A stretch of 64,000 nt of DNA from Acidimicrobiales bacterium (GCA_045807565.1 JBJMHD010000146.1:3085-67084); one strand, 5' to 3'. Positions 11,485 to 30,686 are shown, counted from the stretch's first letter. Made by a program: numbers and translations. Notes: a model not told the origin generated them from the sequence alone.

Positions 11485-13105
11485 GCCCGGTTCCGAGCCG
11501 GTGGACGTGCTGGTCGTCGGCGCCGGCATCACCGGGATCTACCAGCTCTTCCGCGCCCGCGAGGCCGGGTTCTCGGTCGGTCTGCTCGAGGCGGGGGACG
11601 GGGTGGGCGGCACCTGGTTCTGGAACCGCTACCCCGGGGCCCGGTTCGACTCGGAGAGCTACACGTACGGCTACTTCTTCAGCCAGGAGCTCTTCGACGA
11701 GTGGGAGTGGTCGGAGCACTTCGCCGGCCAGCCCGAGGTGGAGCGGTACCTGAACCACGTCGTCGACCGCTTCGACCTGCGGCGCCACATGCGCTTCGGC
11801 GCGCAGGTCGCCTCGGCACGGTTCGACGAGGGCAGCGCCACCTGGGCCGTCACCACCGACGGCGGCGACGTCGTACGCGCCCGCTTCCTCATCTCCTCCA
11901 CCGGCGTGCTCTCGGTGCCGTACGTCCCGGACGTCCCCGGGCAGGACGACTTCCTCGGGGTGCAGCAGCACACCGGGCGGTGGCCGGCCTCCCCCGTCGA
12001 GCTGGCCGGGAAGCGGGTGGCGGTGATCGGCACCTCGTCGAGCGGGGTGCAGGTCGTGGCCGCGATCGTCGACGAGGTCGCCGCGCTCACCGTCTACCAG
12101 CGGTCCGCGAACTGGTGCACGCCCCTGAACAACCGACCCATCACCGCCGAGGAGCAGGCGGCCCTGCGCGCCGACTTCGAGCAGCTGCGCCACACGGTGA
12201 GCACGTCGGTGCACGGCTTCCACCACCCGGTCAACGAGCGCAGCGCCTTCGACGACACCCCGGAGGCGCGCCTCGCGTTCTTCGAGGAAATGTGGGCGAG
12301 CCCGGGGTTCATGAAGTTCACGAGCAACTACGTCGACCTCCTCACCAACCCTGAGGCGAACGCCGAGTGGTGCGAGTTCATCGCCGGCAAGATCCGCGAG
12401 CTCGTGCACGACCCCGACACCGCCGAGCGGCTCATCCCCACCGACCACCGCTACGGCGAGAAGCGACCGCCCTACGTCGCCGGCTACTTCGAGGTGTTCA
12501 ACGAGCCGCACGTCGAGCTGGTCGACCTGCGCGACACCCCGATCGTGCGCCTCACCCCGACGGGGATCGACACGACGGGGGGCACGCGAGAACACGACGT
12601 GATCGTGTGGGCCACCGGGTTCGACTTCGGCACCGGAGCCCTGCGCCGCATGGGCATCCGGGGCCGCGGCGGCCTCGCCCTCGAGGACCACTGGGCCGAC
12701 GGCCCCACCACGTTCCTGGGCGTGCAGACCGCAGGGTTCCCCAACCTCTTCTTCCCCGGCGGCCCGCACGCCGCCGCCGGCAACAACCCCCGGTACAACG
12801 GCGACCAGGTCGACTTCATCACGGACCTCCTCGTCCACGCCCGCGCCCGAGGCTGCGATCTCGTCGAGGTCACATCGGAAGCCGAGGATCGCTGGACGGC
12901 GACGATCGACAAGGCCGCCGCTCGCACCCCGTTCGGCACGATCGGCCAGTACGTGGGCGGGAACATCCCGGGGAAGCCCCGGCGGTACCTGTTGAACGCG
13001 GCCGGCCGTCCGAAGCTGTTCTCGACGATCGCCGAGGTGGTCGACGCCGGCTACGCCGACTTCAGGATGACGTCCCTCGCCGAGCCCGCCGCGCCCCGGA
13101 GCTGA
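11474..13105 (+). CDS. Baeyer-Villiger (type I flavin-containing) monooxygenase
   Basis: It has the FAD motif GAGITG, GGTWFWNRYPG, the BVMO fingerprint FLGVQQHTGRWP and a second Rossmann motif GTSSSG. Confidence 0.85.
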   Translation: MTFSPGSEPVDVLVVGAGITGIYQLFRAREAGFSVGLLEAGDGVGGTWFWNRYPGARFDSESYTYGYFFSQELFDEWEWSEHFAGQPEVERYLNHVVDRFDLRRHMRFGAQVASARFDEGSATWAVTTDGGDVVRARFLISSTGVLSVPYVPDVPGQDDFLGVQQHTGRWPASPVELAGKRVAVIGTSSSGVQVVAAIVDEVAALTVYQRSANWCTPLNNRPITAEEQAALRADFEQLRHTVSTSVHGFHHPVNERSAFDDTPEARLAFFEEMWASPGFMKFTSNYVDLLTNPEANAEWCEFIAGKIRELVHDPDTAERLIPTDHRYGEKRPPYVAGYFEVFNEPHVELVDLRDTPIVRLTPTGIDTTGGTREHDVIVWATGFDFGTGALRRMGIRGRGGLALEDHWADGPTTFLGVQTAGFPNLFFPGGPHAAAGNNPRYNGDQVDFITDLLVHARARGCDLVEVTSEAEDRWTATIDKAAARTPFGTIGQYVGGNIPGKPRRYLLNAAGRPKLFSTIAEVVDAGYADFRMTSLAEPAAPRS

Positions 13106-16324: not shown

Positions 16325-17215
16325 GTGGACCTTCGCTTCGACGGGCGCGTCGCGGTCGTCACCGGCGCCGGGCGCGGGCTCGGGCGCTCCTACGCGCTCC
16401 TGCTGGCGGAGCGCGGGGCCAGCGTCGTGGTGAACGACCTCGGCGGTGAGGTCGACGGCACGGGCGCCGACACCACGCCGGCGGCGCGCGTCGTCGCCGA
16501 GATCGAGGGCGCCGGCGGCACCGCCGTGGCAGACGCGAGCGACGTGTCGACCGAGCCCGGCGCGACGGCGCTGATCGCCACTGCGGTCGAGCAGCTCGGA
16601 CGCCTCGACGTCCTGGTGGCCAACGCGGGGATCATGCGGTGGGCGGAGTTCCCCGACGTGGACGCTGACGACCTCGCCCGGCACCTCGCCGTGCACGTGG
16701 GAGGCTCCTTCCACACCGCCCGCGCCGCGTGGCCGCACCTCGTCGCCCAGGGCTACGGCCGCATCGTGCTCACGACGTCGACGGGGCTCCTCGGGGTCCG
16801 GGGCAACACGTCCTACGCCGCCGCCAAGGGCGCCGTGCTCGGACTGGCGCGCAGCCTGGCCCTCGCCGGCGCCCCTCACGACATCAAGGTGAACTGCATC
16901 GCCCCGGCCGCCTCCACCCGCATGGCGGGGGGGCACGGCCCCGAGCTGCCCGAAGAGGAGGCGGCGCCGATGGCGGCCTACCTCGCCCACGAGTCCTGTC
17001 CGGTCTCGGGTGAGACGTACACCGCGGGGGGCGGCCGGTTCGCACGGCTGTTCATCGGCTCCACCGAGGGCCACGTGCCGGCCGGCGAGGGACCGGCGAC
17101 GATCGAGGACGTCGCCTCGCACTGGGCAGAGATCAACGACCCGGCCGACTTCTACGTGCCGGCCGACCTGATCGCCTGGTCGACGCGGTTCCTCTCGCAC
17201 CGGAGCGCGCGATGA
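16325..17215 (+). CDS. SDR-family oxidoreductase
   Basis: GTG start, with TGAGRGLG, NAG and catalytic YAAAK. Confidence 0.8.
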   Translation: MDLRFDGRVAVVTGAGRGLGRSYALLLAERGASVVVNDLGGEVDGTGADTTPAARVVAEIEGAGGTAVADASDVSTEPGATALIATAVEQLGRLDVLVANAGIMRWAEFPDVDADDLARHLAVHVGGSFHTARAAWPHLVAQGYGRIVLTTSTGLLGVRGNTSYAAAKGAVLGLARSLALAGAPHDIKVNCIAPAASTRMAGGHGPELPEEEAAPMAAYLAHESCPVSGETYTAGGGRFARLFIGSTEGHVPAGEGPATIEDVASHWAEINDPADFYVPADLIAWSTRFLSHRSAR

Positions 17216-18747
17216 GCACGACCATGGAGCCCGACCTGAGCTGGTGCTCGGTGCTCGCGCACCATGCCGTCCGCACGCCCCACAAGGCGATCACGCTGTT
17301 CGAGGGGGAGGCGATCACCTACGCCGAGATGGCCGAGCGGTCCGCGGCGCTGGCCGCCGGCCTCGCCGAGCGAGGTGTCCGCCGTGGGGACGTGGTCGCG
17401 CTGCTGTCCTACAGCTGCCCGGAGATGATCGAGACGGTGTTCGCCGCGAACCACCTCGGCGCCATCGCCATGCCGATCAACTGGCGCCTCGCCGCGCCCG
17501 AGGTGCGCTACATCCTGGAGCACTCCGGCGCCCGCGCCCTCGTGTGCGACCGTGACCTGCTCGCGCTGGCCGACGAGGCGACCAAGGGCATCGAGGGCAC
17601 GATCGTGCGAGCCGCGATCGCGCCGACTGCACCGGACGGCTGGGTGGCCCTCGCTGACGTCCGCTCGCGCCCGATCGACGCCGTCGCGGTGGCAGCCGAC
17701 GACGTCCATCGCCTCATGTACACCTCGGGCACCACCGGACGGCCCAAGGGCGTGATGCTCACGCACGCCAACCTGGCCTGGAAGAACCTGGCGCACCTGG
17801 TGGAGTTCGGCTTCACCAGCGCCGACCTCGGGCTGGCGTGCGGGCCGCTGTACCACGTCGGCGCCCTCGACCTCACCACCACCACGCTGATCGCCGCCGG
17901 TGCGACGGTCATCGTCCATCGCACCTTCGATGCGGCGGCGGTGGTCGACGAGCTCGAGCGCTCGCGCGTCACCACCGTGTGGCTCGCCCCGGCCATGGTC
18001 AACGCGATCATGGCGCTGCCCGACGTGGAGCGGCGCGATCTCTCGTCGGTGCGCGTGATCATCAACGGTGGCGAGAAGATGCCCATCCCGCTCATCGAGC
18101 GGATCCAGCGCACCTTCCCCTCGGCCTGGTTCGCCGACGCCTACGGGCTCACCGAGACCGTGTCGGGTGACACGTTCCTGGACCGCGACAGCATCGTCAC
18201 CAAGCTCGGCAGCGTCGGGCGTCCTTGCCTGCACCTCGAGCTCGACATCTGGGACGACGCCGGTCGACCGTTGCCGCCCGGCGAGCGCGGGGAGATCGTG
18301 CTGCGCGGGCCCAAGGTGTTCAAGGGCTACTGGCGCGACGAGGACGCCACCGCTCGCGCCTTCGCCGGCGGCTGGTTCCACACCGGCGACGTCGGGGTGG
18401 TCGACGACGACGGCTACCTCTTCATCGTCGACCGGCTGAAGGACATGATCGTCTCCGGCGGCGAGAACATCGCCAGCTCCGAGGTGGAGCGCGTGCTCTA
18501 CGAGCACGATGCCGTGCTGGAGGCTGCCGTCGTCGGCCGGCCCGACGAGCGCTGGGGCGAGGTGCCGGTGGCGTACGTCGTGCTCCGCGACGGGTCGAGC
18601 GCCACCGAGGAGGAGCTGCTCGAGCGGTGCCGGCGCGACCTCGCCAAGTTCAAGGTGCCGAAGGACCTGTCGTTCATCGATGCCTTGCCGCGCAACCCGT
18701 CCGGCAAGGTCCTGAAGCGAGAGCTGCGCGCTGGGAGACCCGAGTGA
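17212..18747 (+). CDS. AMP-dependent acyl-CoA synthetase/ligase
   Basis: The ATG overlaps the upstream stop (ATGA). It has YTSGTTGRPKGV, GWFHTGD and a PSGKVLKRE loop. Confidence 0.85.
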   Translation: MSTTMEPDLSWCSVLAHHAVRTPHKAITLFEGEAITYAEMAERSAALAAGLAERGVRRGDVVALLSYSCPEMIETVFAANHLGAIAMPINWRLAAPEVRYILEHSGARALVCDRDLLALADEATKGIEGTIVRAAIAPTAPDGWVALADVRSRPIDAVAVAADDVHRLMYTSGTTGRPKGVMLTHANLAWKNLAHLVEFGFTSADLGLACGPLYHVGALDLTTTTLIAAGATVIVHRTFDAAAVVDELERSRVTTVWLAPAMVNAIMALPDVERRDLSSVRVIINGGEKMPIPLIERIQRTFPSAWFADAYGLTETVSGDTFLDRDSIVTKLGSVGRPCLHLELDIWDDAGRPLPPGERGEIVLRGPKVFKGYWRDEDATARAFAGGWFHTGDVGVVDDDGYLFIVDRLKDMIVSGGENIASSEVERVLYEHDAVLEAAVVGRPDERWGEVPVAYVVLRDGSSATEEELLERCRRDLAKFKVPKDLSFIDALPRNPSGKVLKRELRAGRPE

Positions 18748-20076: not shown

Positions 20077-21285
20077 GTGACCGCCACCGAGCCAGACCTG
20101 TACTACGACCCGTACGACTTCGAGATCGACGCCGACCCGTACCCGCTCTGGCGACGGCTCCGCGAGGAGTCACCGCTGTACCACAACGAGAAGTACGACT
20201 TCTTCGCGGTGAGCCGGTTCGACGACTGCGAGAAGGCACTCGTCGACTGGCGCACCTACAGCTCAGCGCGCGGCACGGTGCTCGAGCTCCTGAAGGCCAA
20301 CCTCGAGATGCCCCCGGGATCCATCATCTTCGAGGACCCGCCGAACCACGACCTGCACCGCGGCCTGCTGTCTCGGGTCTTCACCCCCCGGCGGGTGAAC
20401 GGGCTCGAGCCGAAGATCCGCGAGTACTGCGCGACGCGCCTCGACCCCACGGTCGGCACCGGCACGTTCGACTTCATCCACGACCTCGGCGCCTACATGC
20501 CGATGCGCACCATCGGCATGCTGCTCGGCATCCCCGAAGCGGACCAGGAGGCGCTCCGCGAGCACATCGACAAGGGCCTCGAGCTCGAGTCGGCCGAGAT
20601 GCCGGACATGCTCGAGAAGATGGCCAACGGCATGGCGCAGTCCGAGGTCTTCGGCGACTACGTCGACTGGCGCATGCAGAACCCGTCCGACGACCTCATG
20701 ACCGAGCTCCTCAACGCCGAGTTCGAGGACGTCGACGGCGAGCGCAAGAAGCTCACCCGTGAGGAGGTCCTCAACTTCATCAACCTCCTCTCGGGAGCGG
20801 GCAACGAGACAACCACCCGCCTCATCGGCTGGACGGGCAAGACCCTCGCCGAGCACCCGGACCAGCTGCGGAAGGTGGCCGAGGACCGATCGCTGGTGCC
20901 GAACGTGATCGAGGAGGTCCTCCGCTACGAGGCGCCCTCACCGGTCCAGGCCCGGTTCGTGATGCACGACGTCGAGCTGCACGGCCAGACCGTGCCGCAG
21001 GGCAGCGCGATGGTGGTCATCAACGGCTCCGGCAACCGCGACGATCGCCACTTCGAGGATGGTGACTCCTTCGACATCGAGCGCACCATCGACCACCACC
21101 TCTCCTTCGGCTACGGGATCCACTTCTGCCTCGGCGCCGCGCTGGCCCGGCTCGAGGGTCGCATCGCCCTCGACGAGGTGTTGAACCGCTTCCCCGACGG
21201 GTGGGACGTCGACTGGGACAACGCCAAGCAGGCCCGAACGTCCACCGTGCGGGGATGGCAGACGCTCCCGGTGGTGACGCGGTGA
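20077..21285 (+). CDS. cytochrome P450
   Basis: It has the ExxR motif in EEVLRYEA, the heme loop FGYGIHFCLG and the I-helix AGNETT. Confidence 0.9.
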   Translation: MTATEPDLYYDPYDFEIDADPYPLWRRLREESPLYHNEKYDFFAVSRFDDCEKALVDWRTYSSARGTVLELLKANLEMPPGSIIFEDPPNHDLHRGLLSRVFTPRRVNGLEPKIREYCATRLDPTVGTGTFDFIHDLGAYMPMRTIGMLLGIPEADQEALREHIDKGLELESAEMPDMLEKMANGMAQSEVFGDYVDWRMQNPSDDLMTELLNAEFEDVDGERKKLTREEVLNFINLLSGAGNETTTRLIGWTGKTLAEHPDQLRKVAEDRSLVPNVIEEVLRYEAPSPVQARFVMHDVELHGQTVPQGSAMVVINGSGNRDDRHFEDGDSFDIERTIDHHLSFGYGIHFCLGAALARLEGRIALDEVLNRFPDGWDVDWDNAKQARTSTVRGWQTLPVVTR

Positions 21286-22040
21286 CGGCCGTGCGGACCG
21301 TCGTGGTCGGCGCGTCCAGCGGCCTCGGGCGCTCGATCGCCGTGGGCCTCGGCCAGCGGGGGCACCGGGTGGCGCTCCTGGCTCGGCGCCAGGACCGACT
21401 GGAGCGCGCGGCCAAGGAAGCGGGCGAGGGCTGCGTCCCGATCGTGTGCGACGTCACCGACGAGGCATCCGTCGAGTCGGCGATGGCATCGGCCGTCGAG
21501 CACCTCGGAGGCGTCGACGGGCTGGTGTACGCGACGGGCATCGGCGAGCTCTCGACCCTGATGGAGCACGACAAGGACCGCTGGCACCGCGCCTTCGACA
21601 CCAACGTGATCGGTGCGTGGCAGGTCACCAGGGCGGCCATCCCCCACCTGGCGGCGTCACAGGGCGCGGCGGCCTACCTCTCGTCGGTCAGCGCCTCGCT
21701 CACCCCGCCGTGGCCCGGGCTCGGCTCCTATGCGGTGAGCAAGGCCGCACTCGACAAGCTGGTCGAGGCCTGGCGCGCCGAGCACCCCCAGATCGGCTTC
21801 ACCCGTGTCATCGTCGGCGACTGCGCCGGCGGCGAGGGCGAGTCGCTCACCGAGTTCGCCGACGGCTGGGACCGCGAGGCCTCGGGCGACTTCGTCATGG
21901 AGTGGTACACGCGCAAGTACATCACCGGCACGCTCATGGACGTCCAAGAGCTGGTCGGCACCGTCGACTTCGTCGTCCGCTCCGGGAGCACGGTGTGCAT
22001 CCAGAGCGTCACGGCCGCCCCGCGCCCACCGGCGCCGTGA
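21282..22040 (+). CDS. SDR-family oxidoreductase
   Basis: The GTG overlaps the upstream stop (GTGA). It has GASSGLG and catalytic YAVSK. Confidence 0.75.
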   Translation: MTAVRTVVVGASSGLGRSIAVGLGQRGHRVALLARRQDRLERAAKEAGEGCVPIVCDVTDEASVESAMASAVEHLGGVDGLVYATGIGELSTLMEHDKDRWHRAFDTNVIGAWQVTRAAIPHLAASQGAAAYLSSVSASLTPPWPGLGSYAVSKAALDKLVEAWRAEHPQIGFTRVIVGDCAGGEGESLTEFADGWDREASGDFVMEWYTRKYITGTLMDVQELVGTVDFVVRSGSTVCIQSVTAAPRPPAP

Positions 22041-22050
22041 GGAGCGAGAG

Positions 22051-23118
22051 ATGACCGCACCACCCCATCGCGTCGTCCAGTGGACGACCGGCAACGTGGG
22101 CAAGAGCTCGGTGAAGGCGATCGCCGCCAGCCCCACCCTCGAGCTGGTCGGTTGCTACGCCTGGTCCGCCGACAAGGTCGGCCGCGACGTGGGCGAGCTG
22201 TGCGGCATCGAAGCCCTGGGGGTGACGGCCACCGACGACGTCGACGCGCTGCTCGCGCTGGAGCCCGACTGCGTCGTCTACAACCCGATGTGGATGGACG
22301 TCGATGAGCTCGTGCGCATCCTGTCGGCGGGGGTGAACGTGGTGTCCTCCGCAGCGTTCGTCACCGGCGAGCGGCTCGGGCCGGATCGCGATCGGATCGT
22401 CGAGGCCTGCGACCAGGGCGGCGCGACCATGTTCGGCACCGGCATCAGCCCCGGGTTCGCCGAGCTGCTCGCCATCGTCGCCACGTCGATCTGCGATCGC
22501 GTCGACAAGGTCACCGTGGCGGAAGCGGCCGACACCACCTTCTACGACTCCCCCGACACCGAGCGTCCCGCCGGGTTCGGGCTGCCGATCGACGACCCGA
22601 GCCTGCCGGGGATGGCCGCCGAGGGCACGGCCGTGTTCGGCGAGGCGGTTCGGCTGGTGGCCGACGCGCTGGGCGTCGAGCTCGACGAGGTGCGCTGCGA
22701 CGCCGAGTACGCCCAGACCACCGAGGACCTCGATCTCGGCTCCTGGGTGATCCCGGCCGGTCACGTCGCCGGGGTCGCCGCGTCCTGGAAGGGCCTGGTG
22801 GGCGGCCGGGTCGTCGTCGACCTCAACGTGCGCTGGCGCAAGGGGTCGACCCTCGAGCCCGACTGGAAGATCGAGCAGGACGGCTGGGTCATCACCATCG
22901 AGGGCCGTCCGACGGTCACGATGAACGTGGGCTTCCTCCCGCCACCCGACTTCGAGGCCGAGACGATCGCCGACTTCATGGTGCTCGGCCACATCATGAC
23001 GGCGATGCCGCCGCTCAACGCCATCCCCGCGGTCGTCGCGGCGCCGCCCGGGATCGTGACGTACAACGACCTCCCGCTCACGGTCCCCCGCGGCTCCGTG
23101 CCGCTGGGTGGGTCGTAG
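22051..23118 (+). CDS. NAD(P)-binding DapB-N-like / amine-dehydrogenase-like family protein (copy 2)
   Basis: The ATG at 22051 is followed by RVVQWTTGNVGKSS. It is a paralog of 7367..8401. Confidence 0.65.
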   Translation: MTAPPHRVVQWTTGNVGKSSVKAIAASPTLELVGCYAWSADKVGRDVGELCGIEALGVTATDDVDALLALEPDCVVYNPMWMDVDELVRILSAGVNVVSSAAFVTGERLGPDRDRIVEACDQGGATMFGTGISPGFAELLAIVATSICDRVDKVTVAEAADTTFYDSPDTERPAGFGLPIDDPSLPGMAAEGTAVFGEAVRLVADALGVELDEVRCDAEYAQTTEDLDLGSWVIPAGHVAGVAASWKGLVGGRVVVDLNVRWRKGSTLEPDWKIEQDGWVITIEGRPTVTMNVGFLPPPDFEAETIADFMVLGHIMTAMPPLNAIPAVVAAPPGIVTYNDLPLTVPRGSVPLGGS

Positions 23119-23140
23119 GACCCGGTCGTAGGATCGCCCG

Positions 23141-23908
23141 ATGGCGTCTGACCGACCTCCCACGCAGCTCCCGACCTTCGACAGCGTCGAGGAGGAGCGC
23201 CTCCACCGAAAGCAGCGCCTCGCCGCGGCGTTCCGCCTGTTCGGGCAGTTCGGCTTCGACGAGGGCGTCGCCGGCCACATCACCGCGCGCGACCCCGAGC
23301 TCCTCGACCACTTCTGGGTCAACCCGCTGGCGATGAGCTTCAAGCAGATCAAGGTGAAGGACCTCATCCTCGTGAACGACCACGGCGAGGTCGTCGACGG
23401 CACCTGGCCCGTGAACGCGGCGGCGTTCGCCATCCACTCGCAGGTCCACGCCGCCCGGCCCGACGTGGTCGCCGCCGCGCACTCGCACTCCGTCTACGGC
23501 AAGTCGTGGTCCTCCCTCCGCCGCCTCCTCGACCCGCTCACCCAGGACTCGTGCGCCTTCTACGGCGACCACGCCCTGTTCGACGACTTCACGGGCGTCG
23601 TCCTCGACCTCGAGGAGGGCAAGCGGATCGCCCACGCCCTCGGGGACCACAAGGCCGTGATCCTCTCGAACCACGGGCTGCTCACCTGCGGCCACACCGT
23701 CGACGAAGCGGCGTGGTGGTTCATCACCATGGAGCGCACGTGCCAGGCACAGCTCCTCGCCGAGGCGGCCGGCTCCCCGGTGCTCATCGACCGCGAGCAG
23801 GCGGAGAAGACCGCCCAGCAGGTCGGCAGCCACCTGGCCGGATGGTTCTCCTTCCAGCCGCTCTACGACTGGATCACCTCGGTCCAGCCCGACCTCCTCG
23901 AGGAGTAG
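23141..23908 (+). CDS. class II aldolase/adducin-family protein
   Basis: It has GVAGHITARD, an AIHSQVHAARPDV segment and a His cluster AAAHSHS. Confidence 0.8.
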   Translation: MASDRPPTQLPTFDSVEEERLHRKQRLAAAFRLFGQFGFDEGVAGHITARDPELLDHFWVNPLAMSFKQIKVKDLILVNDHGEVVDGTWPVNAAAFAIHSQVHAARPDVVAAAHSHSVYGKSWSSLRRLLDPLTQDSCAFYGDHALFDDFTGVVLDLEEGKRIAHALGDHKAVILSNHGLLTCGHTVDEAAWWFITMERTCQAQLLAEAAGSPVLIDREQAEKTAQQVGSHLAGWFSFQPLYDWITSVQPDLLEE

Positions 23909-23914
23909 CCCTCT

Positions 23915-25216
23915 GTGACCTGGAGCTTCGAGACCGAACCCGAGTTCCAGGAGAAGCTGGACTGGGCCGACGCCTTCGTGCGCGAGGAGGTGGAGCCACT
24001 CGACCTGCTGTGGCCGGACCTCGTGTTCACGCCCCCGGACGACACGCTCAAGAAGGTGCTCGACCCGCTCAAGGAGCAGGTCCGCGCCCAGGGGCTCTGG
24101 GCGACGCACCTCGGCCCCGAGCTCGGCGGCGCCGGCTACGGCCAGCTGAAGCTGAGCCTCCTCAACGAGATCCTCGGCCGGTCGTCCTGGGCGCCGGTGA
24201 TCTTCGGCTGCCAGGCACCCGACACCGGCAACGCCGAGATCATCGCCCACTACGGCACGCCCGAGCAGAAGGAGCAGTACCTCAAGCCGCTGCTGAACGG
24301 CGAGCTGTTCTCGTGCTACTCGATGACCGAGCCCCACGCCGGGGCCGACCCCACGCTGTTCAAGACCCGCGCCACCAAGGACGGCGACGAGTGGGTGATC
24401 GAGGGGTGGAAGTTCTTCTCCTCGAACGCGAAGACCGCGGCCTTCCTGATCGTGATGGCGGTCACCGATCCCGACGTGAGCGCCTACCAGGGCATGTCGA
24501 TGTTCCTGGTCCCCACCGACACACCAGGCGTCGACATCGTGCGCGACATCGGCCTCGGCGGTGAGCCCCTCGGCGAGGGCTCGCACGCCCTCATCCACTA
24601 CGACGGCGTCCGCGTGCCCGCCGACGCGCTGCTCGGCGGGGAGGGCCAGGCCTTCGCCATCGCCCAGACGCGGCTGGGCGGTGGGCGCATCCACCACGCC
24701 ATGCGCACCATCGGCATGGCCACCAAGGCGCTCGACGCCATGTGCGAGCGCGCCCTGAGCCGCGAGGTGTCGGGCGGCCTGCTCGCCGAGAAGCAGTTCG
24801 TGCAGGGCTACATCGCCGACTCCTACGCGCAGCTCGTGCAGTTCCGGCTCTTCGTGCTCTACACCGCCTGGACGATCGACAAGCACAACGACTACCGCAA
24901 GGTGCGCAAGGACATCTCCGCGGTGAAGGTGATCATGCCCACCGTGCTGCACGACATCGCGTGGCGCGCCATGCAGGTGCACGGCGCCCTGGGCGTGAGC
25001 AACGAGATGCCGTTCCACGGCATGATGCTCGGCGCCAGCGTGATGGGGCTCGCCGACGGGCCCACCGAGGTGCACAAGGTCACCGTCGCCCGGCAGGTGC
25101 TCCGCGAGCACAAGCCGACCGACGACCTCTGGCCCACGTCCCACCTGCCCAAGCGGCTCGCGGCCGCCCGCGAGAAGTACGCGGAGCACCTCGAGCACAC
25201 GGTGGGCAACCTGTGA
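23915..25216 (+). CDS. acyl-CoA dehydrogenase, ACAD10/ACAD11/FadE2-like subfamily
   Basis: GTG start. It has the ACAD middle and C-terminal domains. The C-terminal motif LADGPTEVHK is one I recall as typical of this subfamily. Confidence 0.8.
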   Translation: MTWSFETEPEFQEKLDWADAFVREEVEPLDLLWPDLVFTPPDDTLKKVLDPLKEQVRAQGLWATHLGPELGGAGYGQLKLSLLNEILGRSSWAPVIFGCQAPDTGNAEIIAHYGTPEQKEQYLKPLLNGELFSCYSMTEPHAGADPTLFKTRATKDGDEWVIEGWKFFSSNAKTAAFLIVMAVTDPDVSAYQGMSMFLVPTDTPGVDIVRDIGLGGEPLGEGSHALIHYDGVRVPADALLGGEGQAFAIAQTRLGGGRIHHAMRTIGMATKALDAMCERALSREVSGGLLAEKQFVQGYIADSYAQLVQFRLFVLYTAWTIDKHNDYRKVRKDISAVKVIMPTVLHDIAWRAMQVHGALGVSNEMPFHGMMLGASVMGLADGPTEVHKVTVARQVLREHKPTDDLWPTSHLPKRLAAAREKYAEHLEHTVGNL

Positions 25217-26229
25217 TCGACGTCCAGCGGCTGGAGACGTGGCTCGACGACGAGGGGCTGCCCGGCAAGGGCGAGCCGCTGGAGGCGACCTTCGTGACCG
25301 GCGGCACGCAGAACGAGATCTACGAGGTCCGCCGCGGCGAGCTGCACGGCGCCCTGCGCATCCCTCCGCCAGAGGCGCCGGCGCCGCGCGACGACGGCAT
25401 CCTCCGGGAGTGGCGGATCATCGACGCGCTGAGCGGCACCGACGTGCCCCACACCCCCGCCCTCGCCGCCTGCACGGACGCGTCCGTCCTGGGGCGCACC
25501 TTCTACCTGATGGGGTTCGTCGACGGGTGGTCGCCCATCAACGTCGACGGATGGCCGGCGCCGTTCGACGCCGACGTGGAGGCACGCCGGGGGTTGGCGT
25601 ACCAGCTCGTCGAGGGGATCGCGCTCCTGTCCAAGGTCGACTGGCAGGCCAAGGGCCTGCAGGACCTGGGGCGGCCCGACGGGTTCCACGAGCGGCAGGT
25701 GGACCGGTGGACCACCTTCCTCGAGCGGATCAAGGGCCGTGAGCTGCCGGGGTTCGAGGACGCCGCGGCCTGGCTGCGCGCCCACAAGCCGTACGACTAC
25801 GTGCCGGGGATCATGCACGGCGACTACCAGTTCGCCAACGTGATGTTCTGCCATGGCGGTCCGGCGCGCCTGGCCGCCATCGTCGACTGGGAGATGGGCA
25901 CCGTGGGCGACCCGAAGCTCGACCTCGGCTGGGTCACGAACTCGTGGCCCGAGGACACCTCGGAGGGCAAGGGCACGGTCGGCAGCTACGTCGACATGAC
26001 GGGGATGCCCTCGAAGTCGCAGGTGCTGGCCCACTACGCGGAGGTCTCGGGCCGTCAGGTCGACGACATCGCGTACTACGAGATCCTCGCCAAGTGGAAG
26101 CTCGCGGTGGTGCTCGAGCAGGGCTTCCAGCGCGCCGGCGACGACATCAAGCTGCAGGCGTTCGGGCCGGTGGTCCTCGACCTCATGCGCGAGGCGGCCG
26201 AGCTGGCGGCCACCACCGACTACCGGTGA
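25213..26229 (+). CDS. APH-type phosphotransferase (kinase) family protein
   Basis: The GTG overlaps the ACAD stop (GTGA). It has the catalytic loop HGDYQFANVMF and the metal-binding segment IVDWEMG. Confidence 0.8.
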   Translation: MIDVQRLETWLDDEGLPGKGEPLEATFVTGGTQNEIYEVRRGELHGALRIPPPEAPAPRDDGILREWRIIDALSGTDVPHTPALAACTDASVLGRTFYLMGFVDGWSPINVDGWPAPFDADVEARRGLAYQLVEGIALLSKVDWQAKGLQDLGRPDGFHERQVDRWTTFLERIKGRELPGFEDAAAWLRAHKPYDYVPGIMHGDYQFANVMFCHGGPARLAAIVDWEMGTVGDPKLDLGWVTNSWPEDTSEGKGTVGSYVDMTGMPSKSQVLAHYAEVSGRQVDDIAYYEILAKWKLAVVLEQGFQRAGDDIKLQAFGPVVLDLMREAAELAATTDYR

Positions 26230-26262: not shown

Positions 26263-27246
26263 ATGCGCGCCGCGGTGTGTCGCACCAACGGACCGCCCGA
26301 GGTCGTGGCGGTGGAGGACTGGCCGGTGGCAGCGGTGGGGGCCGGCGAGGCGCGCGTGCGCGTCGTCGCGGCTGCCGTGAACTTCCCGGACGTCCTGCTC
26401 GTCGCCGGTCAGTACCAGATCGAGGCGCCGCTCCCGTTCGTCGTCGGCAGCGAGCTGGCGGGCGTGGTGGAGGAGGTCGCCGGCGGCGTCGACCACGTGC
26501 GGCCCGGTGACCACGTGACGGGCACCAGCCTGGTGGGGGCCTTCGCCGAGGAGGTCGTGATGCCCGCAGCGACGTTGTCGCCGATCCCTGCGGGCCTGTC
26601 GGACGTCGACGCCGTGGCCGCAGGGGTGGCACACCGCACCGCCATCCACGTCCTCCGCTCCGGCGCTCGGCTCGCCGCGTCCGACGAGCTCGTCGTGCTC
26701 GGGGCGGGTGGCGGCGTCGGTCTCGCGACGGTCCAGCTGGGCGCTGCGCTCGGCGCCACCGTCACCGCCGTCGCGTCATCGGAGGAGAAGCTCCACGCGG
26801 CGCGAGCGAACGGGGCACAGCGCACAGTCCGCTCGGGCGGCGACCTGCGCGCCGCCCTGCGGGGAGCGCTGCCCGACGGGGCCGACGTCGTGGTGGACCC
26901 CGTCGGCGGCGAGCTGGCGGAGCCCGCGCTCCGCTCGCTGCGGTACGGCGGGCGCTTCGTGAGCGTGGGGTACGCCTCTGGTGAGATCCCGCGCATCCCG
27001 CTCAACGTCGTGCTGCTCAAGGGGATCGAGGTCCGAGGGTTCGAGTTCCTCGGCTTCGCCACCCACGAGCCCGATGCCCTCGTGCGGAACGAGGCCGAGC
27101 TGCGCGACCTGCTCACCAGCGGTCGGGTCCGTCCGCACATCGGCGCGACCTTCGCCCTCGACGAGGTGGCGGCTGCGCTGCGCTTCGTCGCCGACGGCCG
27201 AGCGGTGGGCAAGGTCGTGATCGACGTCGCCGGCGGCAGCGACTAG
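26263..27246 (+). CDS. MDR-family NADPH:quinone oxidoreductase / zinc-type alcohol dehydrogenase-like
   Basis: It has a GroES-like N-terminus and the nucleotide motif GAGGGVG. Confidence 0.8.
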   Translation: MRAAVCRTNGPPEVVAVEDWPVAAVGAGEARVRVVAAAVNFPDVLLVAGQYQIEAPLPFVVGSELAGVVEEVAGGVDHVRPGDHVTGTSLVGAFAEEVVMPAATLSPIPAGLSDVDAVAAGVAHRTAIHVLRSGARLAASDELVVLGAGGGVGLATVQLGAALGATVTAVASSEEKLHAARANGAQRTVRSGGDLRAALRGALPDGADVVVDPVGGELAEPALRSLRYGGRFVSVGYASGEIPRIPLNVVLLKGIEVRGFEFLGFATHEPDALVRNEAELRDLLTSGRVRPHIGATFALDEVAAALRFVADGRAVGKVVIDVAGGSD

Positions 27247-27277: not shown

Positions 27278-28261
27278 GTGTACAGGTTGCGGTTCGACAT
27301 GCGGGCCCCGGGCAGCACCGCCGAGCAGCGGGCGCACCTCTACGAGACCGCCCTCGAGATGTCGGCCTTCGTCGACGAGCGGGGCGGCTGCCAAGCCATC
27401 GCGGTGTCCGAGCACCACGCGTCCGCCGATGGCTACCTCCCGTCGCCGTTCACCATGGCCGCCGCGATCGCGGCGGTCACGAGGAGCGTGCCGATCATGG
27501 TCGCCGCTGCGCTGCTCCCGCTGTACGACCCCGTGCGCATGGCGGAGGAGATGATCGTCCTCGACCACCTGTCTCGGGGGCGCGTGATCCACATCCTGGG
27601 CATCGGCTACCGGCCCGTCGAGTACGAGCTCCACGGCGTCGACTACCGCCGTCGTGGCGCCATCGCCGACGAGAAGCTCGCCGTCCTGCTCGCCGCGCTC
27701 CGGGGGGCCGGCGGCGACGGCGCCCACGTCACGCCAGAGCCCTTCACCAGCGGGGGCCCGATGGTCGTGTGGGGCGGCACCACGAAGAAGGCGGCGGAGC
27801 GAGCGGGCCGCAACGGGCTGGGCTTCATCGCGCAGTCGGGCGATCCCGCCCTCGGCCCCGCGTACGAGGGCGCGGCATGCGACGCTGGTCACCAACCGGG
27901 CCTCTGCATCCTGCCGAGCCCTGACACCCCGGCGTCGGTGTTCGTCGCCGAGGACGTGGACGACGGCTGGGCGGAGCTGGGCGAGGCCCTCCTCGCCGAT
28001 GCCAGCGCGTACTGGGCGTGGAACGAGGCAGCCGGGCTCACCGACGCGACCGTGTCGCTCACCGCGGGCTCCACGGTCGAGGCGCTGCGGGCCGCCCACG
28101 GCTCCCATCGGGTCGTCACCGTCGACGAGGCGGTGGCGCTCGTGCGCCGCGACGGCGCCCTCGGCCTGCAGCCGCTGTGCGGCGGCCTGGACCCGGCCGT
28201 GGCATGGCCCTACCTGCGGCGTGTCGTCGACGAGGTGGTCCCGCTCGCCTCCGCCGGATGA
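27278..28261 (+). CDS. LLM-class (luciferase-like) flavin-dependent oxidoreductase
   Basis: GTG start. The SEHH segment and TIM-barrel-like pattern are typical of the LLM family. Confidence 0.7.
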   Translation: MYRLRFDMRAPGSTAEQRAHLYETALEMSAFVDERGGCQAIAVSEHHASADGYLPSPFTMAAAIAAVTRSVPIMVAAALLPLYDPVRMAEEMIVLDHLSRGRVIHILGIGYRPVEYELHGVDYRRRGAIADEKLAVLLAALRGAGGDGAHVTPEPFTSGGPMVVWGGTTKKAAERAGRNGLGFIAQSGDPALGPAYEGAACDAGHQPGLCILPSPDTPASVFVAEDVDDGWAELGEALLADASAYWAWNEAAGLTDATVSLTAGSTVEALRAAHGSHRVVTVDEAVALVRRDGALGLQPLCGGLDPAVAWPYLRRVVDEVVPLASAG

Positions 28262-28274
28262 GAACACCGTTTCC
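28260..28274 (+). promoter_or_regulatory. GAGAA-N5-TTTCC box (GAGAACACCGTTTCC)
   Basis: It starts inside the TGA of the LLM gene, 26 nt upstream of the ACAD pair ATG at 28300. Confidence 0.3.
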
Positions 28275-28299: not shown

Positions 28300-29439
28300 A
28301 TGCTCCTCCAGCCCGACCGCGACCAGGAGTCCTTCCGCGACACCACCGGGCGCTTCCTCGACCGCCACGTGCCCGCCGGCGAGGTGCGGCGGCTGCGCGA
28401 CGACCCCGCCGGGTTCGACCTCGCCTACTGGCGCCAGGGTGCCGAGCTCGGGTGGACCTCGCTGCTCGTCGACGAAGCCCACGGCGGCGGCAGCATCAGC
28501 GATCGCGGCCTGGTCGACCTCACCCTCGTCGCCGACGCCTTCGGACGCCGCGCCGCACCGGGCCCGCTGATCCCCGCCAACCTCGTCGCCCACGCCCTGA
28601 GCGCGGCGGGCCACGACACCACTGGTGGCGTGCTCGACGACCTCCTCAGCGGCGCGGGGGTGGCCACGTGGGCGCTGTCCGAGCGGCAGCCGGGCGCGGC
28701 CATGGGCTCGCCCAGCCTGCAGGTCTGGAGCGACGGAGCCGAGGTGGTGCTCCGCGGCGAGAAGCGTCCCGTGGAGTCCGCCGACCGTGCCGACCACCTC
28801 CTGGTCACCGGCCGCACCGACGACGGGCTCACGCAGGTCCTCGTGCCCCGCGACTCGGCGGGCGTGTCCGTGGCGCCCATGCGCACGGTCGACCTCACCC
28901 GACGGTTCTCGGTGGTCACCTTCGACGACGTGCGCGTACCGGCGAGCGCCGTCGTCGGCGCGCTCGGCCAGGCTCGCGCCCAGGTCGAGCAGCAGGCACG
29001 CATCGCGATCGTGCTCGCGTGCGCCGAGTCGGTGGGCGCCATGCAGGCTGGCTTCGACCTCACCGTGGCATGGGCGTTCGACCGCTACTCGCTGGGCCGG
29101 CCGCTCGCCTCGTACCAGGCGCTCAAGCACCGCTTCGCGGACATGCTCTCGTGGCTCGAGGCCAGCCACGCCGTGAGCGACGAGGCCGCCGTCGCGGTGG
29201 CCGATGGCTCCTCCGACGCACCCGAGCTGGCGAGCGCCGCAAAGGCCTACGTGGGGCTGCACGGCACCGAGCTGCTGCAGGACTGCGTGCAGCTCCATGG
29301 CGGCATCGGCGTCACCTTCGAGCACGACCTCCACCTCTACCTTCGCCGCCACACCCTGAACCGGGTGCTCTACGGCTCGCCCCGCGAGCACCACCAGCGG
29401 CTCACCGACCTGCTCGAGGCCCGGGAGGCGGCGGCATGA
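28300..29439 (+). CDS. acyl-CoA dehydrogenase family protein (first of an overlapping pair)
   Basis: The C-terminal ACAD pattern is LHGGIGVTFEHDLHLYLRR. No YEG-type catalytic Glu is seen at the usual C-terminal position. Confidence 0.8.
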   Translation: MLLQPDRDQESFRDTTGRFLDRHVPAGEVRRLRDDPAGFDLAYWRQGAELGWTSLLVDEAHGGGSISDRGLVDLTLVADAFGRRAAPGPLIPANLVAHALSAAGHDTTGGVLDDLLSGAGVATWALSERQPGAAMGSPSLQVWSDGAEVVLRGEKRPVESADRADHLLVTGRTDDGLTQVLVPRDSAGVSVAPMRTVDLTRRFSVVTFDDVRVPASAVVGALGQARAQVEQQARIAIVLACAESVGAMQAGFDLTVAWAFDRYSLGRPLASYQALKHRFADMLSWLEASHAVSDEAAVAVADGSSDAPELASAAKAYVGLHGTELLQDCVQLHGGIGVTFEHDLHLYLRRHTLNRVLYGSPREHHQRLTDLLEAREAAA

Positions 29440-30686
29440 GCGACGAGCTCGAGACGCTCGACCACTTCCGGGAGCGCGCCCGGCGCTGGATCACCGACAA
29501 CCTGAAGCCCGTCGGCCGCGTGATGGTCTCGCTTCGCACCCTCCGCACCGACGAGGAGGAGCTGGCCGAGATCGCCCGCGAGCGCGAGGTGCAGCGGATG
29601 CTCTTCGACGCCGGTCTGGCGGGGATCTGCGTCCCCCTCGAGTACGGCGGTCAGGGCCTCACGCCCGAGCACCAGCTCGTGCTCAACGAGGAGCTCGATG
29701 GCTACGAGTTCCCGAGCCGATTCCAGGTCCCCACCTTCACGCCCTGCCTCGCCGTGCTGCTCGACTTCGGCACCGAGGAGCAGAAGCAGCGGCACGTCCC
29801 CGCCATCCTCCGGGGCGAGGAGCTCTGGATGCAGTTCCTCTCCGAGCCGAGCGGCGGCTCCGACGTCGCCGGCGCCCTCACCTCCGCGGTGCGGGACGGC
29901 GACGAGTGGGTGCTCAACGGCTCGAAGGTGTGGACCACCGGCGCGTGGTGGTCCGACTGGGGGCTGTGCCTGGCTCGCACGAGCTGGGACGTCCCGAAGC
30001 ACCGCGGTCTCACCGTGTTCATGCTCCCGATCCGCCAGGAGGGCGTCGAGGTGCACCGCATCGAGATGCTGAACGGCAACAAGGAGTTCTGCCAGGAGTT
30101 CCTGTCCGATGTGCGCGTGCCCGACAGCGATCGCATCGGCGAGGTGAACGACGGCTGGACCGTCGGCACGCGGTGGATGTTCCACGAGCGGATGCTCTTC
30201 AACTCGCCCCTCGTGACCTTCCCCGTGGGCACCATGCGAACGGGTGACGAGTCGCTGCTGGCCCTCGCGCGCGACGCCGGGCGCGACCAGGATCCGATCG
30301 CACGCGACCTCATCGGCGAGGCCCGCGCCCACGAGCTCGTCGGCGACGCCCTCCGGCGGCGGATCGCCCTGGGCGTCACCACCGGCGCGCTGTCACAGCA
30401 GGCGGCGGCGGTCGCTCGCCTCTGGGGCGGCGTCGCCCACACGCGACGGGCCACGATCGCCCTCGAGCTCGCCGGCGACATCGGCGGCGCGTGGCTGCCG
30501 GAGGACGGCCTCCCCACGGTCGCGGCCGACGACTTCCTGATGCGCCAGGTCTCCTGCATCGGCGGCGGCACCACGGAGATGGCTCGCAACGTGATCAGCG
30601 AGCGCGTCCTCGGCATGCCGAGGGAGCGGACGCTCGATCGAGACGTGCCGTTCCGCGACGTGCCCCGGTCCGCACCATCGAGCTGA
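29436..30686 (+). CDS. acyl-CoA dehydrogenase family protein (second of the pair)
   Basis: The ATG overlaps the upstream stop (ATGA). It has LSEPSGGSDVAG and a C-terminal IGGGTTEMARN. Confidence 0.8.
   Translation: MSDELETLDHFRERARRWITDNLKPVGRVMVSLRTLRTDEEELAEIAREREVQRMLFDAGLAGICVPLEYGGQGLTPEHQLVLNEELDGYEFPSRFQVPTFTPCLAVLLDFGTEEQKQRHVPAILRGEELWMQFLSEPSGGSDVAGALTSAVRDGDEWVLNGSKVWTTGAWWSDWGLCLARTSWDVPKHRGLTVFMLPIRQEGVEVHRIEMLNGNKEFCQEFLSDVRVPDSDRIGEVNDGWTVGTRWMFHERMLFNSPLVTFPVGTMRTGDESLLALARDAGRDQDPIARDLIGEARAHELVGDALRRRIALGVTTGALSQQAAAVARLWGGVAHTRRATIALELAGDIGGAWLPEDGLPTVAADDFLMRQVSCIGGGTTEMARNVISERVLGMPRERTLDRDVPFRDVPRSAPSS

What the first reader, a model, noticed from the sequence alone, without database searches (positions are those of the whole stretch)
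23141..26229. Split ACAD10/ACAD11-like module: ACAD translationally coupled to an APH-type kinase, preceded by a class II aldolase
ACAD 23915-25216 has a C-terminal LADGPTEVHK motif. It overlaps by GTGA a kinase-fold gene (25213-26229) with an HGDxxxxN catalytic loop and a DWE metal site. Mammalian ACAD10/ACAD11 are natural fusions of exactly these two domains. They are reported to process 4-hydroxyacyl-CoAs through a phosphorylated intermediate, and Pseudomonas putida LvaA/LvaC act likewise on 4-hydroxyvaleryl-CoA. The pair here would give the island a route for gamma-hydroxy acids, which could arise from BVMO-derived lactones. Lactonase candidates (cyclase-family and amidohydrolase genes) lie nearby.
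Basis: partly seen in the sequence, partly recalled or inferred. Interest (0 to 1): 0.6.

Follow-up and report, generated by a model that had tools for sequence, protein, structure and literature searches.

The report
Split bacterial ACAD10/11-type kinase–flavoenzyme pair
Two overlapping genes in an uncultured Acidimicrobiales bacterium encode, as separate proteins, the kinase and the flavoenzyme that mammals fuse in ACAD10/ACAD11 to feed 4-hydroxy fatty acids into beta-oxidation; this is a sound but common bacterial example, and the neighbouring "aldolase" is not part of it.

Summary
The window carries a class II aldolase-like gene (23141-23908), an ACAD (23915-25216) and an APH-fold kinase (25213-26229), and the last two overlap by GTGA.

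The ACAD has every residue shown to matter in mouse ACAD11. These are the catalytic Asp (D381) in place of the usual Glu, and the phosphate-binding R253, H261 and R264. It matches ACAD11 far better than conventional ACADs (E 2e-74 against 2e-41). The kinase matches the ACAD11 kinase domain (2e-25) and its bacterial relatives (about 1e-42), not aminoglycoside kinases (about 1e-4).

A signature ACAD lies next to the kinase in 26 of 29 orthologous loci. The aldolase-like gene does so in 1 of 29. Here it abuts the ACAD only because a TetR gene present in the closest relative is missing. The commoner third partner is the zinc-free MDR reductase downstream (15 of 29).

Both proteins sit in an uncharacterised, mostly actinobacterial sister clade. 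Its kinases read HGDYQFAN and its ACADs read HAMR and carry a C-terminal tail.

Split, adjacent pairs have already been assayed in Pseudomonas and Burkholderia. Verdict: a new member of a known kind. The BVMO/lactone origin of the substrate is untested.

The parts
23915..25216 (+). ACAD10/11- or LvaC-type flavoenzyme (433 aa, P0002), the predicted 4-phosphoacyl-CoA phosphate-eliminating 'ACAD'
   Evidence: It has the three ACAD domains. The best solved relatives are M. abscessus 4hr3 (1e-77) and mouse ACAD11 (2e-74), against 2e-41 for MCAD. R253, R258, H261 and R264 correspond to ACAD11 R626, R631, H634 and R637, D381 corresponds to D753, and CQAPDTGN is present. A conserved C-terminal tail of about 35 aa is specific to its clade.
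25213..26229 (+). APH/protein-kinase-like small-molecule kinase (338 aa, P0003), the predicted 4-hydroxyacyl-CoA kinase
   Evidence: PF01636. PDB matches are 3dxp at 2e-42, 9o56 (the C. thermarum ACAD10-like kinase) at 4e-41 and the mouse ACAD11 kinase domain at 2e-25; capreomycin and viomycin kinases reach only about 1e-4. R49, R65-E66, R161, H202-G-D204, N209 and D225-W-E227 are invariant across the family. Q206 replaces the Lys/Arg of the assayed clade.
25213..25216 (+). GTGA start/stop overlap coupling the ACAD and the kinase
   Evidence: Read directly from the sequence.
26263..27246 (+). Zinc-free MDR (quinone-oxidoreductase / enoyl-thioester-reductase type) reductase (P0124), the most frequent third partner of the pair
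   Evidence: ADH_N and ADH_zinc_N domains. The best matches are QOR, 2-haloacrylate reductase, enoyl-thioester reductases and PKS ER domains, and it is PIG3-like. It has no Cys/His zinc ligands, reading VGSELAG, and contains a single Cys. An orthologue lies next to the pair in 15 of 29 loci.
23141..23908 (+). Class II aldolase/adducin-fold protein (P0001), NovR-like; adjacent to the pair but not part of the module
   Evidence: PF00596 and NF004855. The best solved relative is the decarboxylase NovR, 9ryg, at 8e-78. It is next to the pair in only 1 of 29 related loci. It is present in 34 of 41 related genomes, and in each of the seven same-genus kinase-bearing genomes compared it lies on a different contig from the kinase.
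23909..23914 (.). Junction where a divergent TetR gene and its operator region (about 660 bp) are missing relative to the closest relative
   Evidence: Alignment with L033. The TetR lies beside the ACAD in 11 of 29 related loci.
17212..18747 (+). Acyl-CoA synthetase in the same co-directional gene string, a possible LvaE-like activating step (inference only)
   Evidence: AMP-binding domains. It clears the NF004837 subfamily cut-off for long-chain-fatty-acid--CoA ligase, 498 bits against 476; its best-scoring model, acyl-CoA synthetase NF004797 (558 bits), is below that model's cut-off of 850. It is not conserved with the pair.
21282..22040 (+). SDR, a possible LvaD-like 4-oxoacyl-CoA reductase (inference only)
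   Evidence: adh_short. A 58-59% identical SDR lies directly downstream of the kinase in two same-genus loci, L013 and L014.

Best explanation
Genes 23915-25216 and 25213-26229 encode, as two polypeptides, the two activities that mammals fuse in ACAD10/ACAD11 and that Pseudomonas and Burkholderia encode as LvaA/LvaC-type pairs.

Inferred mechanism, taken from the assayed homologues:
1. The APH-fold kinase uses ATP to phosphorylate the 4-hydroxyl of a 4-hydroxyacyl-CoA. D204 is the catalytic base, and N209 and D225 bind the metal.
2. The FAD-containing ACAD-like enzyme abstracts the alpha-proton with D381 and transiently oxidises C2-C3.
3. It expels the 4-phosphate, which is held by R253, H261 and R264, and returns the reducing equivalents. 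This releases a 2-enoyl-CoA for beta-oxidation, with no net redox change.

The two genes are co-translated through the GTGA overlap. In this genome they have lost their own TetR regulator and promoter region and are fused onto the upstream operon.

The zinc-free MDR reductase downstream is a frequent partner. It probably makes or consumes an enoyl intermediate (inferred). The chain type of the substrate is unknown. The surrounding P450s, paired ACADs, ligase and thioesterase suggest a bulky or modified lipid. The aldolase-like gene upstream belongs to the neighbouring DapB-like gene's unit, not to this module.
For: **ACAD**
- It matches ACAD11 and 4hr3 at E about 1e-74 to 1e-77, against 2e-41 for MCAD.
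- Residue-by-residue alignment to mouse ACAD11 shows R253, R258, H261, R264 and D381 at the positions of R626, R631, H634, R637 and D753. Mutating R626, H634, R637 or D753 abolishes ACAD11 activity (PMC12440821).
- The window's two other ACADs and MCAD lack all of these residues.

**Kinase**
- E-values are 2e-42 to 3dxp, 4e-41 to 9o56, 2e-25 to the ACAD11 kinase and about 1e-4 to aminoglycoside-type kinases.
- All catalytic residues, and the Arg equivalent to ACAD11 R176 (CoA contact), are invariant.

**Linkage and co-diversification**
- A signature ACAD is adjacent in 26 of 29 orthologous loci. The order varies (ACAD then APH, APH then ACAD, or divergent), which argues for function rather than inherited gene order.
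- All 39 neighbouring ACADs with at least 33% identity to P0002, across 80 wider loci, carry R....R..H.MR. DGP.EVH is present wherever the alignment reached it, apart from one Haladaptatus partner that reads DGADEVH.
- The kinase and ACAD trees mirror each other.

**Precedent**
- Split adjacent pairs have been shown to do this chemistry in P. putida and B. pseudomallei (Q63VL0/Q63VL1) (PMC11342911).
Against: - No enzyme of this clade has been assayed.
- In the kinase tree the window's protein lies in a strongly supported sister clade (100 SH-aLRT, stem 0.77) to the one holding ACAD11, 3dxp and 9o56.
- The residue two positions after the catalytic Asp is Gln in 27 of 27 members of its subclade. 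It is Lys/Arg in the assayed clade, and mutating that Lys (K216) abolished activity in the C. thermarum kinase (bioRxiv 10.1101/2025.09.10.675409).
- The ACAD reads HAMR, not HCMR. The Cys was not among the residues tested.
- LvaA and LvaC themselves could not be placed, because no sequence was available to the tools.
- No LvaB-like small gene is present.
- The source of a 4-hydroxyacyl-CoA in this cluster is unknown.
Confidence: 0.7

Rival explanations
1. The pair uses the same phosphorylate-then-eliminate logic on a different gamma-oxygenated thioester from the Lva and ACAD10/11 enzymes. Candidates are a 4-hydroxy-2-enoyl-CoA or 4-oxoacyl-CoA-derived intermediate, or a bulky sterol- or terpenoid-derived acyl-CoA. 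The MDR reductase would then be an obligatory third enzyme of a distinct actinobacterial pathway.
For: Both proteins form a separate clade. The clade has its own signatures: HGDYQFAN, HAMR, DGPTEVH and a conserved C-terminal tail. The MDR reductase is present in 15 of 29 loci, and a hydratase or an SDR in a few others. The neighbourhood is lipid- or steroid-like, with two P450s, a paired ACAD and a thioesterase.
Against: All residues that contact the phosphate and the CoA in ACAD11 are unchanged. The MDR is absent from about half of the loci, including most same-genus ones. Nothing here identifies a substrate.
Confidence: 0.12
2. The kinase is a lipid-alcohol kinase (a 1-O-alkylglycerol kinase), as reported for the ACAD10 kinase domain and several prokaryotic homologues. 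The ACAD next to it works independently.
For: P0003's second-best solved relative, 9o56, matches the numbering of the C. thermarum kinase (R61, E78, D214, K216, N219, D234). That kinase phosphorylates chimyl alcohol.
Against: That kinase belongs to the other clade. The genome has its own member of that clade on contig C175, which is unlinked to an ACAD. The window's kinase is almost always encoded beside an ACAD that keeps the phosphate-binding residues. The essential K216 equivalent is Gln here.
Confidence: 0.07
3. The two genes are functionally unrelated neighbours. The ACAD is a conventional dehydrogenase for bulky acyl-CoAs, and the APH is an antibiotic or other small-molecule phosphotransferase.
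For: Public annotation calls the kinase an 'aminoglycoside phosphotransferase'. ACAD11-like enzymes have been proposed to take bulky substrates because of the E-helix proline (PMC11153573).
Against: Similarity to real antibiotic kinases is marginal, about 1e-4. Linkage is kept in 26 of 29 loci despite rearranged order. The catalytic Asp and the Arg/His/Arg cluster are absent from conventional ACADs.
Confidence: 0.05
4. The aldolase-like protein, the ACAD and the kinase form one three-enzyme unit, with the class II aldolase-fold enzyme acting on the phosphorylated intermediate.
For: The genes are separated by 6 nt and are co-directional. Many class II aldolase-fold enzymes bind phosphate esters (general knowledge).
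Against: The aldolase-like gene is adjacent in only the closest relative, and there a TetR gene on the opposite strand separates it from the ACAD. In the seven same-genus genomes compared it lies on a different contig from the kinase. Its nearest solved relative is the decarboxylase NovR.
Confidence: 0.03

Closest known systems
Mammalian ACAD10 / ACAD11 (PDB 8v3u, 8v3v, 2wbi; PMC12440821, PMC11342911)
   Same: Both have the same two catalytic modules. The ACAD shares the catalytic Asp, the R/H/R phosphate cluster and the APDTGN proline loop. The kinase shares the beta3 Arg, the alphaC Glu, HGD...N, DWE and the R176-equivalent Arg.
   Different: The bacterial version is two polypeptides, not a fusion, and has no HAD domain. 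It reads HAMR instead of HCMR and HGDYQ instead of HGDFK. The ACAD has an extra C-terminal tail. Both proteins lie in a sister clade. In the six-sequence alignment the kinases are 27% identical.
Burkholderia pseudomallei kinase Q63VL0 + ACAD Q63VL1, and Pseudomonas putida LvaA(B)/LvaC of the levulinate operon
   Same: These are separate, neighbouring kinase and ACAD genes in bacteria. They have been shown in vitro to convert 4-hydroxyacyl-CoA through 4-phosphoacyl-CoA to enoyl-CoA. A CoA ligase and SDRs are present in the same gene string here, as LvaE and LvaD are in lva.
   Different: The sequences of these proteins were not available to the tools, so their place in the trees is untested. 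There is no LvaB-like small gene and no LvaR here. The ligase and SDR here are not conserved partners.
Caldalkalibacillus thermarum ACAD10-like kinase (PDB 9o56; bioRxiv 10.1101/2025.09.10.675409)
   Same: Same fold and catalytic residues, with E 4e-41 to P0003.
   Different: It was assayed as a 1-O-alkylglycerol kinase. It belongs to the other clade and has HYDYK, with an essential Lys where P0003 has Gln.
Mycobacterium abscessus ACAD, PDB 4hr3 (structural-genomics entry, function unassayed)
   Same: It is the best solved match to P0002 (1e-77). It shares HHAMR and LADGPDEVH.
   Different: It falls in the ACAD11 clade, not the window's clade, and lacks the C-terminal tail.

Membership tests
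ACAD10/11-LvaC-type phosphate-eliminating ACADs | Catalytic Asp at the position of the MCAD Glu376 base (ACAD11 D753) | tested here: met
   D381 in LADGPTEVH aligns with D753 of ACAD11 and E376 of MCAD.
ACAD10/11-LvaC-type phosphate-eliminating ACADs | Phosphate-binding Arg/His/Arg cluster (ACAD11 R626, H634, R637), which is essential by mutagenesis | tested here: met
   R253, H261 and R264 are present. The mutagenesis is in PMC12440821.
ACAD10/11-LvaC-type phosphate-eliminating ACADs | Exact HCMR motif | tested here: not met
   The motif is HAMR, with A262 in place of Cys, as in 4hr3 and the whole clade. The Cys was not among the residues shown to be essential.
ACAD10/11-LvaC-type phosphate-eliminating ACADs | Closer to ACAD10/11 than to any conventional ACAD | tested here: met
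   2e-74 against 2e-41. In the tree, MCAD and the window's other ACADs sit on very long branches outside. It lies in a sister clade to the ACAD11 clade.
ACAD10/11-LvaC-type phosphate-eliminating ACADs | 4-phosphoacyl-CoA to 2-enoyl-CoA activity, FAD-dependent and needing no external acceptor | not testable with these tools
   This needs an enzyme assay.
ACAD10/11 N-domain / LvaA-type acyl-CoA kinases (APH/PKL fold) | APH fold with HxD...N catalytic loop, DWE metal motif, beta3 Arg and alphaC Glu | tested here: met
   PF01636. R49, E66, H202, D204, N209, D225, W226 and E227 are invariant.
ACAD10/11 N-domain / LvaA-type acyl-CoA kinases (APH/PKL fold) | Arg contacting the CoA moiety (ACAD11 R176) | tested here: met
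   R161 aligns with it and is invariant in all 99 family sequences. The CoA contact itself comes from MD modelling in PMC12440821.
ACAD10/11 N-domain / LvaA-type acyl-CoA kinases (APH/PKL fold) | Lys/Arg two residues after the catalytic Asp (HGDxK/R; K216 is essential in the C. thermarum enzyme) | tested here: not met
   Q206 is Gln in 27 of 27 sequences of the subclade; the sister subclade mostly has His.
ACAD10/11 N-domain / LvaA-type acyl-CoA kinases (APH/PKL fold) | Groups with ACAD10/11 kinase domains rather than with aminoglycoside or choline kinases | tested here: met
   The E-value gap is 1e-25 to 1e-42 against 1e-4 to 1e-9, and no choline kinase hit appears. The tree places it in a sister clade to the ACAD11/3dxp/9o56 clade, with only one outgroup used.
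ACAD10/11 N-domain / LvaA-type acyl-CoA kinases (APH/PKL fold) | Encoded with, or fused to, a signature ACAD | tested here: met
   GTGA overlap here; 26 of 29 orthologous loci.
Pseudomonas lva operon (lvaRABCDE) | LvaB small partner, LvaR regulator, and dedicated LvaD reductase and LvaE ligase | tested here: inconclusive
   There is no room for an LvaB-like ORF between or beside the pair. No regulator is present, because the TetR has been lost. A ligase and SDRs exist in the gene string, but orthology to LvaE and LvaD was not testable and they are not conserved partners.
   1 of 29 loci. It lies on other contigs in the same-genus genomes compared.

The most novel reading that the evidence does not exclude
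The window's pair belongs to an uncharacterised, mostly actinobacterial clade of kinase + ACAD. Its kinases have Gln or His in place of the essential catalytic-loop Lys, and its ACADs read HAMR and DGPTEVH and carry a conserved C-terminal tail. This clade, together with a zinc-free MDR reductase and often its own TetR, could form a distinct three-enzyme pathway for a gamma-oxygenated acyl-CoA that differs from the plain 4-hydroxy acids handled by the Lva and ACAD10/11 enzymes.
Probability: 0.15. Interest if true: 0.5.

Novelty: new member of a known kind. Interest (0 to 1): 0.25.

Why it matters
It corrects a routine misannotation. Thousands of metagenomic proteins of this type are labelled "aminoglycoside phosphotransferase". 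It also assigns uncultured Acidimicrobiia, and some mycobacteria, a likely route for 4-hydroxy acids.

It shows that the enzyme pair recently worked out for mammalian ACAD10/11 has a second, unassayed bacterial clade with its own active-site variant. One recombinant assay would extend or limit the known chemistry.

It does not open a new kind of system, and the pathway context in this window stays speculative.

Tried and rejected
- **Exact-sequence look-up.** Looking up the kinase in public assemblies found nothing.
- **LvaA/LvaC and the B. pseudomallei pair.** I tried to obtain their sequences for the trees. The control genomes of the genome search do not include Pseudomonas putida. The supplement of PMC11342911 holds only images and two short motif strips. 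I did not type sequences from memory, so these proteins are unplaced.
- **Aldolase as a module member.** Rejected by synteny.
- **BVMO or lactonase link.** A BVMO homologue lies near the pair in only two related loci, L017 (76% identical) and L057 (29%). The cyclase and amidohydrolase genes are not conserved partners, apart from one 46% amidohydrolase in L017.
- **Island operator box.** GAGAAC-N3-GTTCTC has no copy in front of the pair. The 5 matches at up to 2 mismatches are within chance expectation, since 6 of 100 shuffles reach 5.
- **ACAD11 'R86' CoA contact.** I could not map it with confidence. The SEQRES numbering offset (+1) puts an Arg at 84 rather than 86, so I do not use it.
- **Structure prediction.** Not run, because sequence matches to solved structures were already decisive.
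Full report
**Observation**

The window is about 70% G+C. It comes from a 3.5-Mb metagenome-assembled genome whose closest named relatives are Acidimicrobiales (Aquihabitans, Acidimicrobiaceae, Microthrixaceae). The three ORFs are real (translations).
- 23141-23908 is a class II aldolase/adducin-fold protein (PF00596 at 1.4e-47; NF004855 at 438 bits against a cut-off of 255).
- 23915-25216 is a three-domain ACAD.
- 25213-26229 is an APH-family phosphotransferase.

The ACAD stop and the kinase GTG share GTGA. The ACAD GTG lies 6 nt after the aldolase stop, behind a GAGGAG hexamer.

**The ACAD**

Against all solved structures, P0002 matches M. abscessus 4hr3 (1e-77) and mouse and human ACAD11 (2e-74 to 1e-72). 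The next group, the MCAD/SCAD type, starts at 2e-41.

The printed alignment to mouse ACAD11 places P0002 R253, R258, H261, A262, M263 and R264 on R626, R631, H634, C635, M636 and R637, and D381 on D753. The D753N mutant chain 8v3v shows N at that column. MCAD has its catalytic Glu there.

In ACAD11, substitutions of R626, H634, R637 and D753 abolish conversion of 4-phosphoacyl-CoA, and these residues are described as absent from conventional ACADs (PMC12440821). The 'APDTGN' proline loop that PMC11342911 highlights is also present. MCAD and the window's two other ACADs (28300-29439 and 29436-30686) have none of these features. The one departure is HAMR for HCMR. It is shared by the whole clade and by 4hr3, and the Cys was not among the residues tested.

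**The kinase**

P0003 matches 3dxp (Cupriavidus, 2e-42), 9o56 (4e-41) and the kinase domain of mouse ACAD11 (2e-25). Other APH-like proteins reach about 1e-9, and capreomycin and viomycin kinases about 1e-4.

The residue numbers of 9o56 fit the Caldalkalibacillus thermarum 'ACAD10 kinase' of a 2026 preprint (R61, E78, D214, K216, N219, D234).

P0003 keeps several residues that are invariant in 99 family sequences:
- the beta3 Arg (R49);
- the alphaC Glu (E66);
- H202-G-D204, N209 and D225-W-E227;
- R161, the equivalent of ACAD11 R176, which was modelled to contact CoA.

One experimentally essential residue differs. The Lys two positions after the catalytic Asp (K216 in C. thermarum, K/R in ACAD11 and 3dxp) is Gln206 here. 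From my own recollection, choline kinases also have Gln at this position. I did not test this.

**Linkage**

I fetched orthologous and more distant loci from relatives' genomes and from 185,579 species genomes.

Among the 29 loci whose kinase is at least 51% identical, neighbours within 3.5 kb were counted as follows:

| Neighbour | Loci (of 29) |
|---|---|
| ACAD with at least 56% identity | 26 |
| Zinc-free MDR reductase like 26263-27246 | 15 |
| TetR | 11 |
| Enoyl-CoA hydratase | 3 |
| SDR like 21282-22040 | 2 |
| Aldolase-like gene | 1 |

One of the three loci without an ACAD has only 605 nt of flank on one side of the kinase. Gene order varies between ACAD then APH, APH then ACAD, and divergent. 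That points to selection for proximity.

In the wider set of 80 loci, 39 have a neighbouring ACAD with at least 33% identity to P0002. Every one of those carries R....R..H.MR, and DGP.EVH wherever the alignment reached it, apart from one Haladaptatus partner that reads DGADEVH. These include Streptomyces, Myxococcota, Dormibacterota and haloarchaea.

**Trees**

The kinase tree has two deep groups.
- One holds mouse ACAD11, 3dxp, 9o56, the Streptomyces kinases and this genome's own second kinase on contig C175.
- The other (100% SH-aLRT, stem 0.77) is almost entirely actinobacterial. It splits into the window's subclade (27 rows, mostly ACAD-linked, all HGDYQFAN) and a roughly 40%-identical subclade (HGDYH.AN).

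The ACAD tree mirrors this. The window's ACAD sits in a sister clade to the one with ACAD11, 4hr3, the Streptomyces partners and this genome's paralogue on C52. ACADs of the window's clade carry a conserved tail of about 35 residues (W-PT-HLP...KYAE-LEH-VGNL) that the ACAD11 clade lacks.

The genome therefore has two sets, a linked pair (this finding) and an unlinked pair of the ACAD11-like clade.

**The aldolase-like gene**

Its best solved relative is the decarboxylase NovR (8e-78), followed by TqaM and other non-aldolase members of the fold. It occurs in 34 of 41 related genomes. In each of the seven same-genus kinase-bearing genomes I compared, it lies on a different contig from the kinase.

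In the closest relative (L033, kinase 91% identical) the same long gene string exists, but a 226-aa TetR gene on the opposite strand lies between the aldolase-like gene and the ACAD. The alignment shows that the window lacks exactly this stretch of about 660 bp, including a CAGAAT-GCC-ATTCTG palindrome just upstream of the ACAD.

In Aquihabitans the unit is TetR (divergent), then ACAD, kinase, hydratase and MDR. So the aldolase adjacency looks like a by-product of TetR loss. I infer loss because the TetR sits beside the ACAD in 11 of 29 related loci, although an insertion in the other lineages is not formally excluded. The aldolase-like gene instead goes with the upstream DapB-like/DAP_DH_C gene. 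In Aquihabitans that gene type sits next to an HpcH/HpaI aldolase.

**Context**

The co-directional string from about 15.3 to 32.5 kb encodes the following:
- an amidohydrolase;
- an SDR;
- an acyl-CoA synthetase;
- two P450s;
- a second SDR;
- a DapB-like oxidoreductase;
- the aldolase-like protein;
- the ACAD-kinase pair;
- the MDR reductase;
- a luciferase-like oxidoreductase;
- a paired ACAD;
- a thioesterase;
- DUF427.

The MDR protein has no zinc ligands (VGSELAG, one Cys). It resembles quinone oxidoreductases, 2-haloacrylate reductase and enoyl-thioester reductases.

A ligase and an SDR could play the LvaE and LvaD roles, but they are not conserved with the pair. The BVMO at 11474-13105 and the cyclase and amidohydrolase genes show no conserved association either.

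**Comparison with what is known**

Split, adjacent kinase + ACAD genes doing this chemistry have been shown for P. putida LvaA/LvaC. They have also been shown for the B. pseudomallei proteins with neighbouring accessions Q63VL0 and Q63VL1, which can replace the ACAD10 domains in vitro (PMC11342911).

Earlier notes of this scan list the same pattern in well over a hundred genomes. One covers the same subclade and independently reports the Gln, the tail and the MDR partner. I treated these as leads and reproduced those points myself.

The finding is therefore a well-supported new member of a known kind, in a clade that has not been assayed. I put 0.7 on the 4-hydroxyacyl-CoA kinase / phosphate-eliminating flavoenzyme reading. 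The rest is spread over a variant substrate, an alkylglycerol-kinase role and unrelated neighbours.

Noticed in passing
window 23909-23914; L033 8001-8702: Relative to the closest relative, the window lacks a stretch of about 660 bp. That stretch carries a divergent TetR gene and a CAGAAT-GCC-ATTCTG palindrome just upstream of the ACAD. The pair has therefore lost its own regulator and is fused to the upstream operon.
   Followed up: yes
G000 contigs C175:3492-4394, C52:2283-3473, C26:8108-9304 (L025, L027, L026): The same genome encodes a second, unlinked kinase and ACAD of the ACAD11/3dxp/9o56-like clade. It also has a third signature ACAD (53% identical, with a similar C-terminal tail) that lies next to a hydratase but not next to a kinase.
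   Followed up: partly
L038 (Mycolicibacterium bacteremicum), L042 (Mycobacterium neumannii), L044: The pairs in mycobacteria (kinase 69-70% identical, ACAD 76-77%) nest inside the Acidimicrobiia sequences in both trees. This suggests horizontal transfer of the pair between Acidimicrobiia and Mycobacteriaceae.
   Followed up: partly
window 25105-25213 (P0002 residues 398-433): The C-terminal extension (W-PT-HLP...KYAE-LEH-VGNL) is specific to the window's ACAD clade. It is absent from ACAD11, 4hr3 and the Streptomyces partners. Its role is unknown, and it could be a docking element for the separate kinase.
   Followed up: partly
window 22051-23908; L031 16917-18868: A DapB_N/DAP_DH_C oxidoreductase is followed by the NovR-like aldolase-fold protein here. 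In Aquihabitans an HpcH/HpaI aldolase sits directly upstream of the same type of oxidoreductase. This may be a recurring oxidoreductase + C-C lyase/decarboxylase pairing.
   Followed up: no
L046, L047, L048, L052 (Mycobacterium-type MAGs): In this subgroup the order is APH, then a gap of about 0.8 kb, then ACAD, TetR and MDR. A second, 30%-identical APH gene sits on the opposite strand, 0.7-1.7 kb upstream of the first.
   Followed up: no
window 32526/32523 junction; L033 17270-18043: The closest relative has an extra SDR/epimerase gene between DUF427 and the minus-strand amidohydrolase. The window lacks it, which is a second small gene-content difference in an otherwise collinear cluster.
   Followed up: no
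window 28260-28274: GAGAACACCGTTTCC is a 2-mismatch copy of the island's GAGAAC-N3-GTTCTC box. It sits at the boundary between the luciferase-like gene, overlapping its last two bases, and the paired ACAD genes. The total count of such near-matches in the window is within chance.
   Followed up: partly
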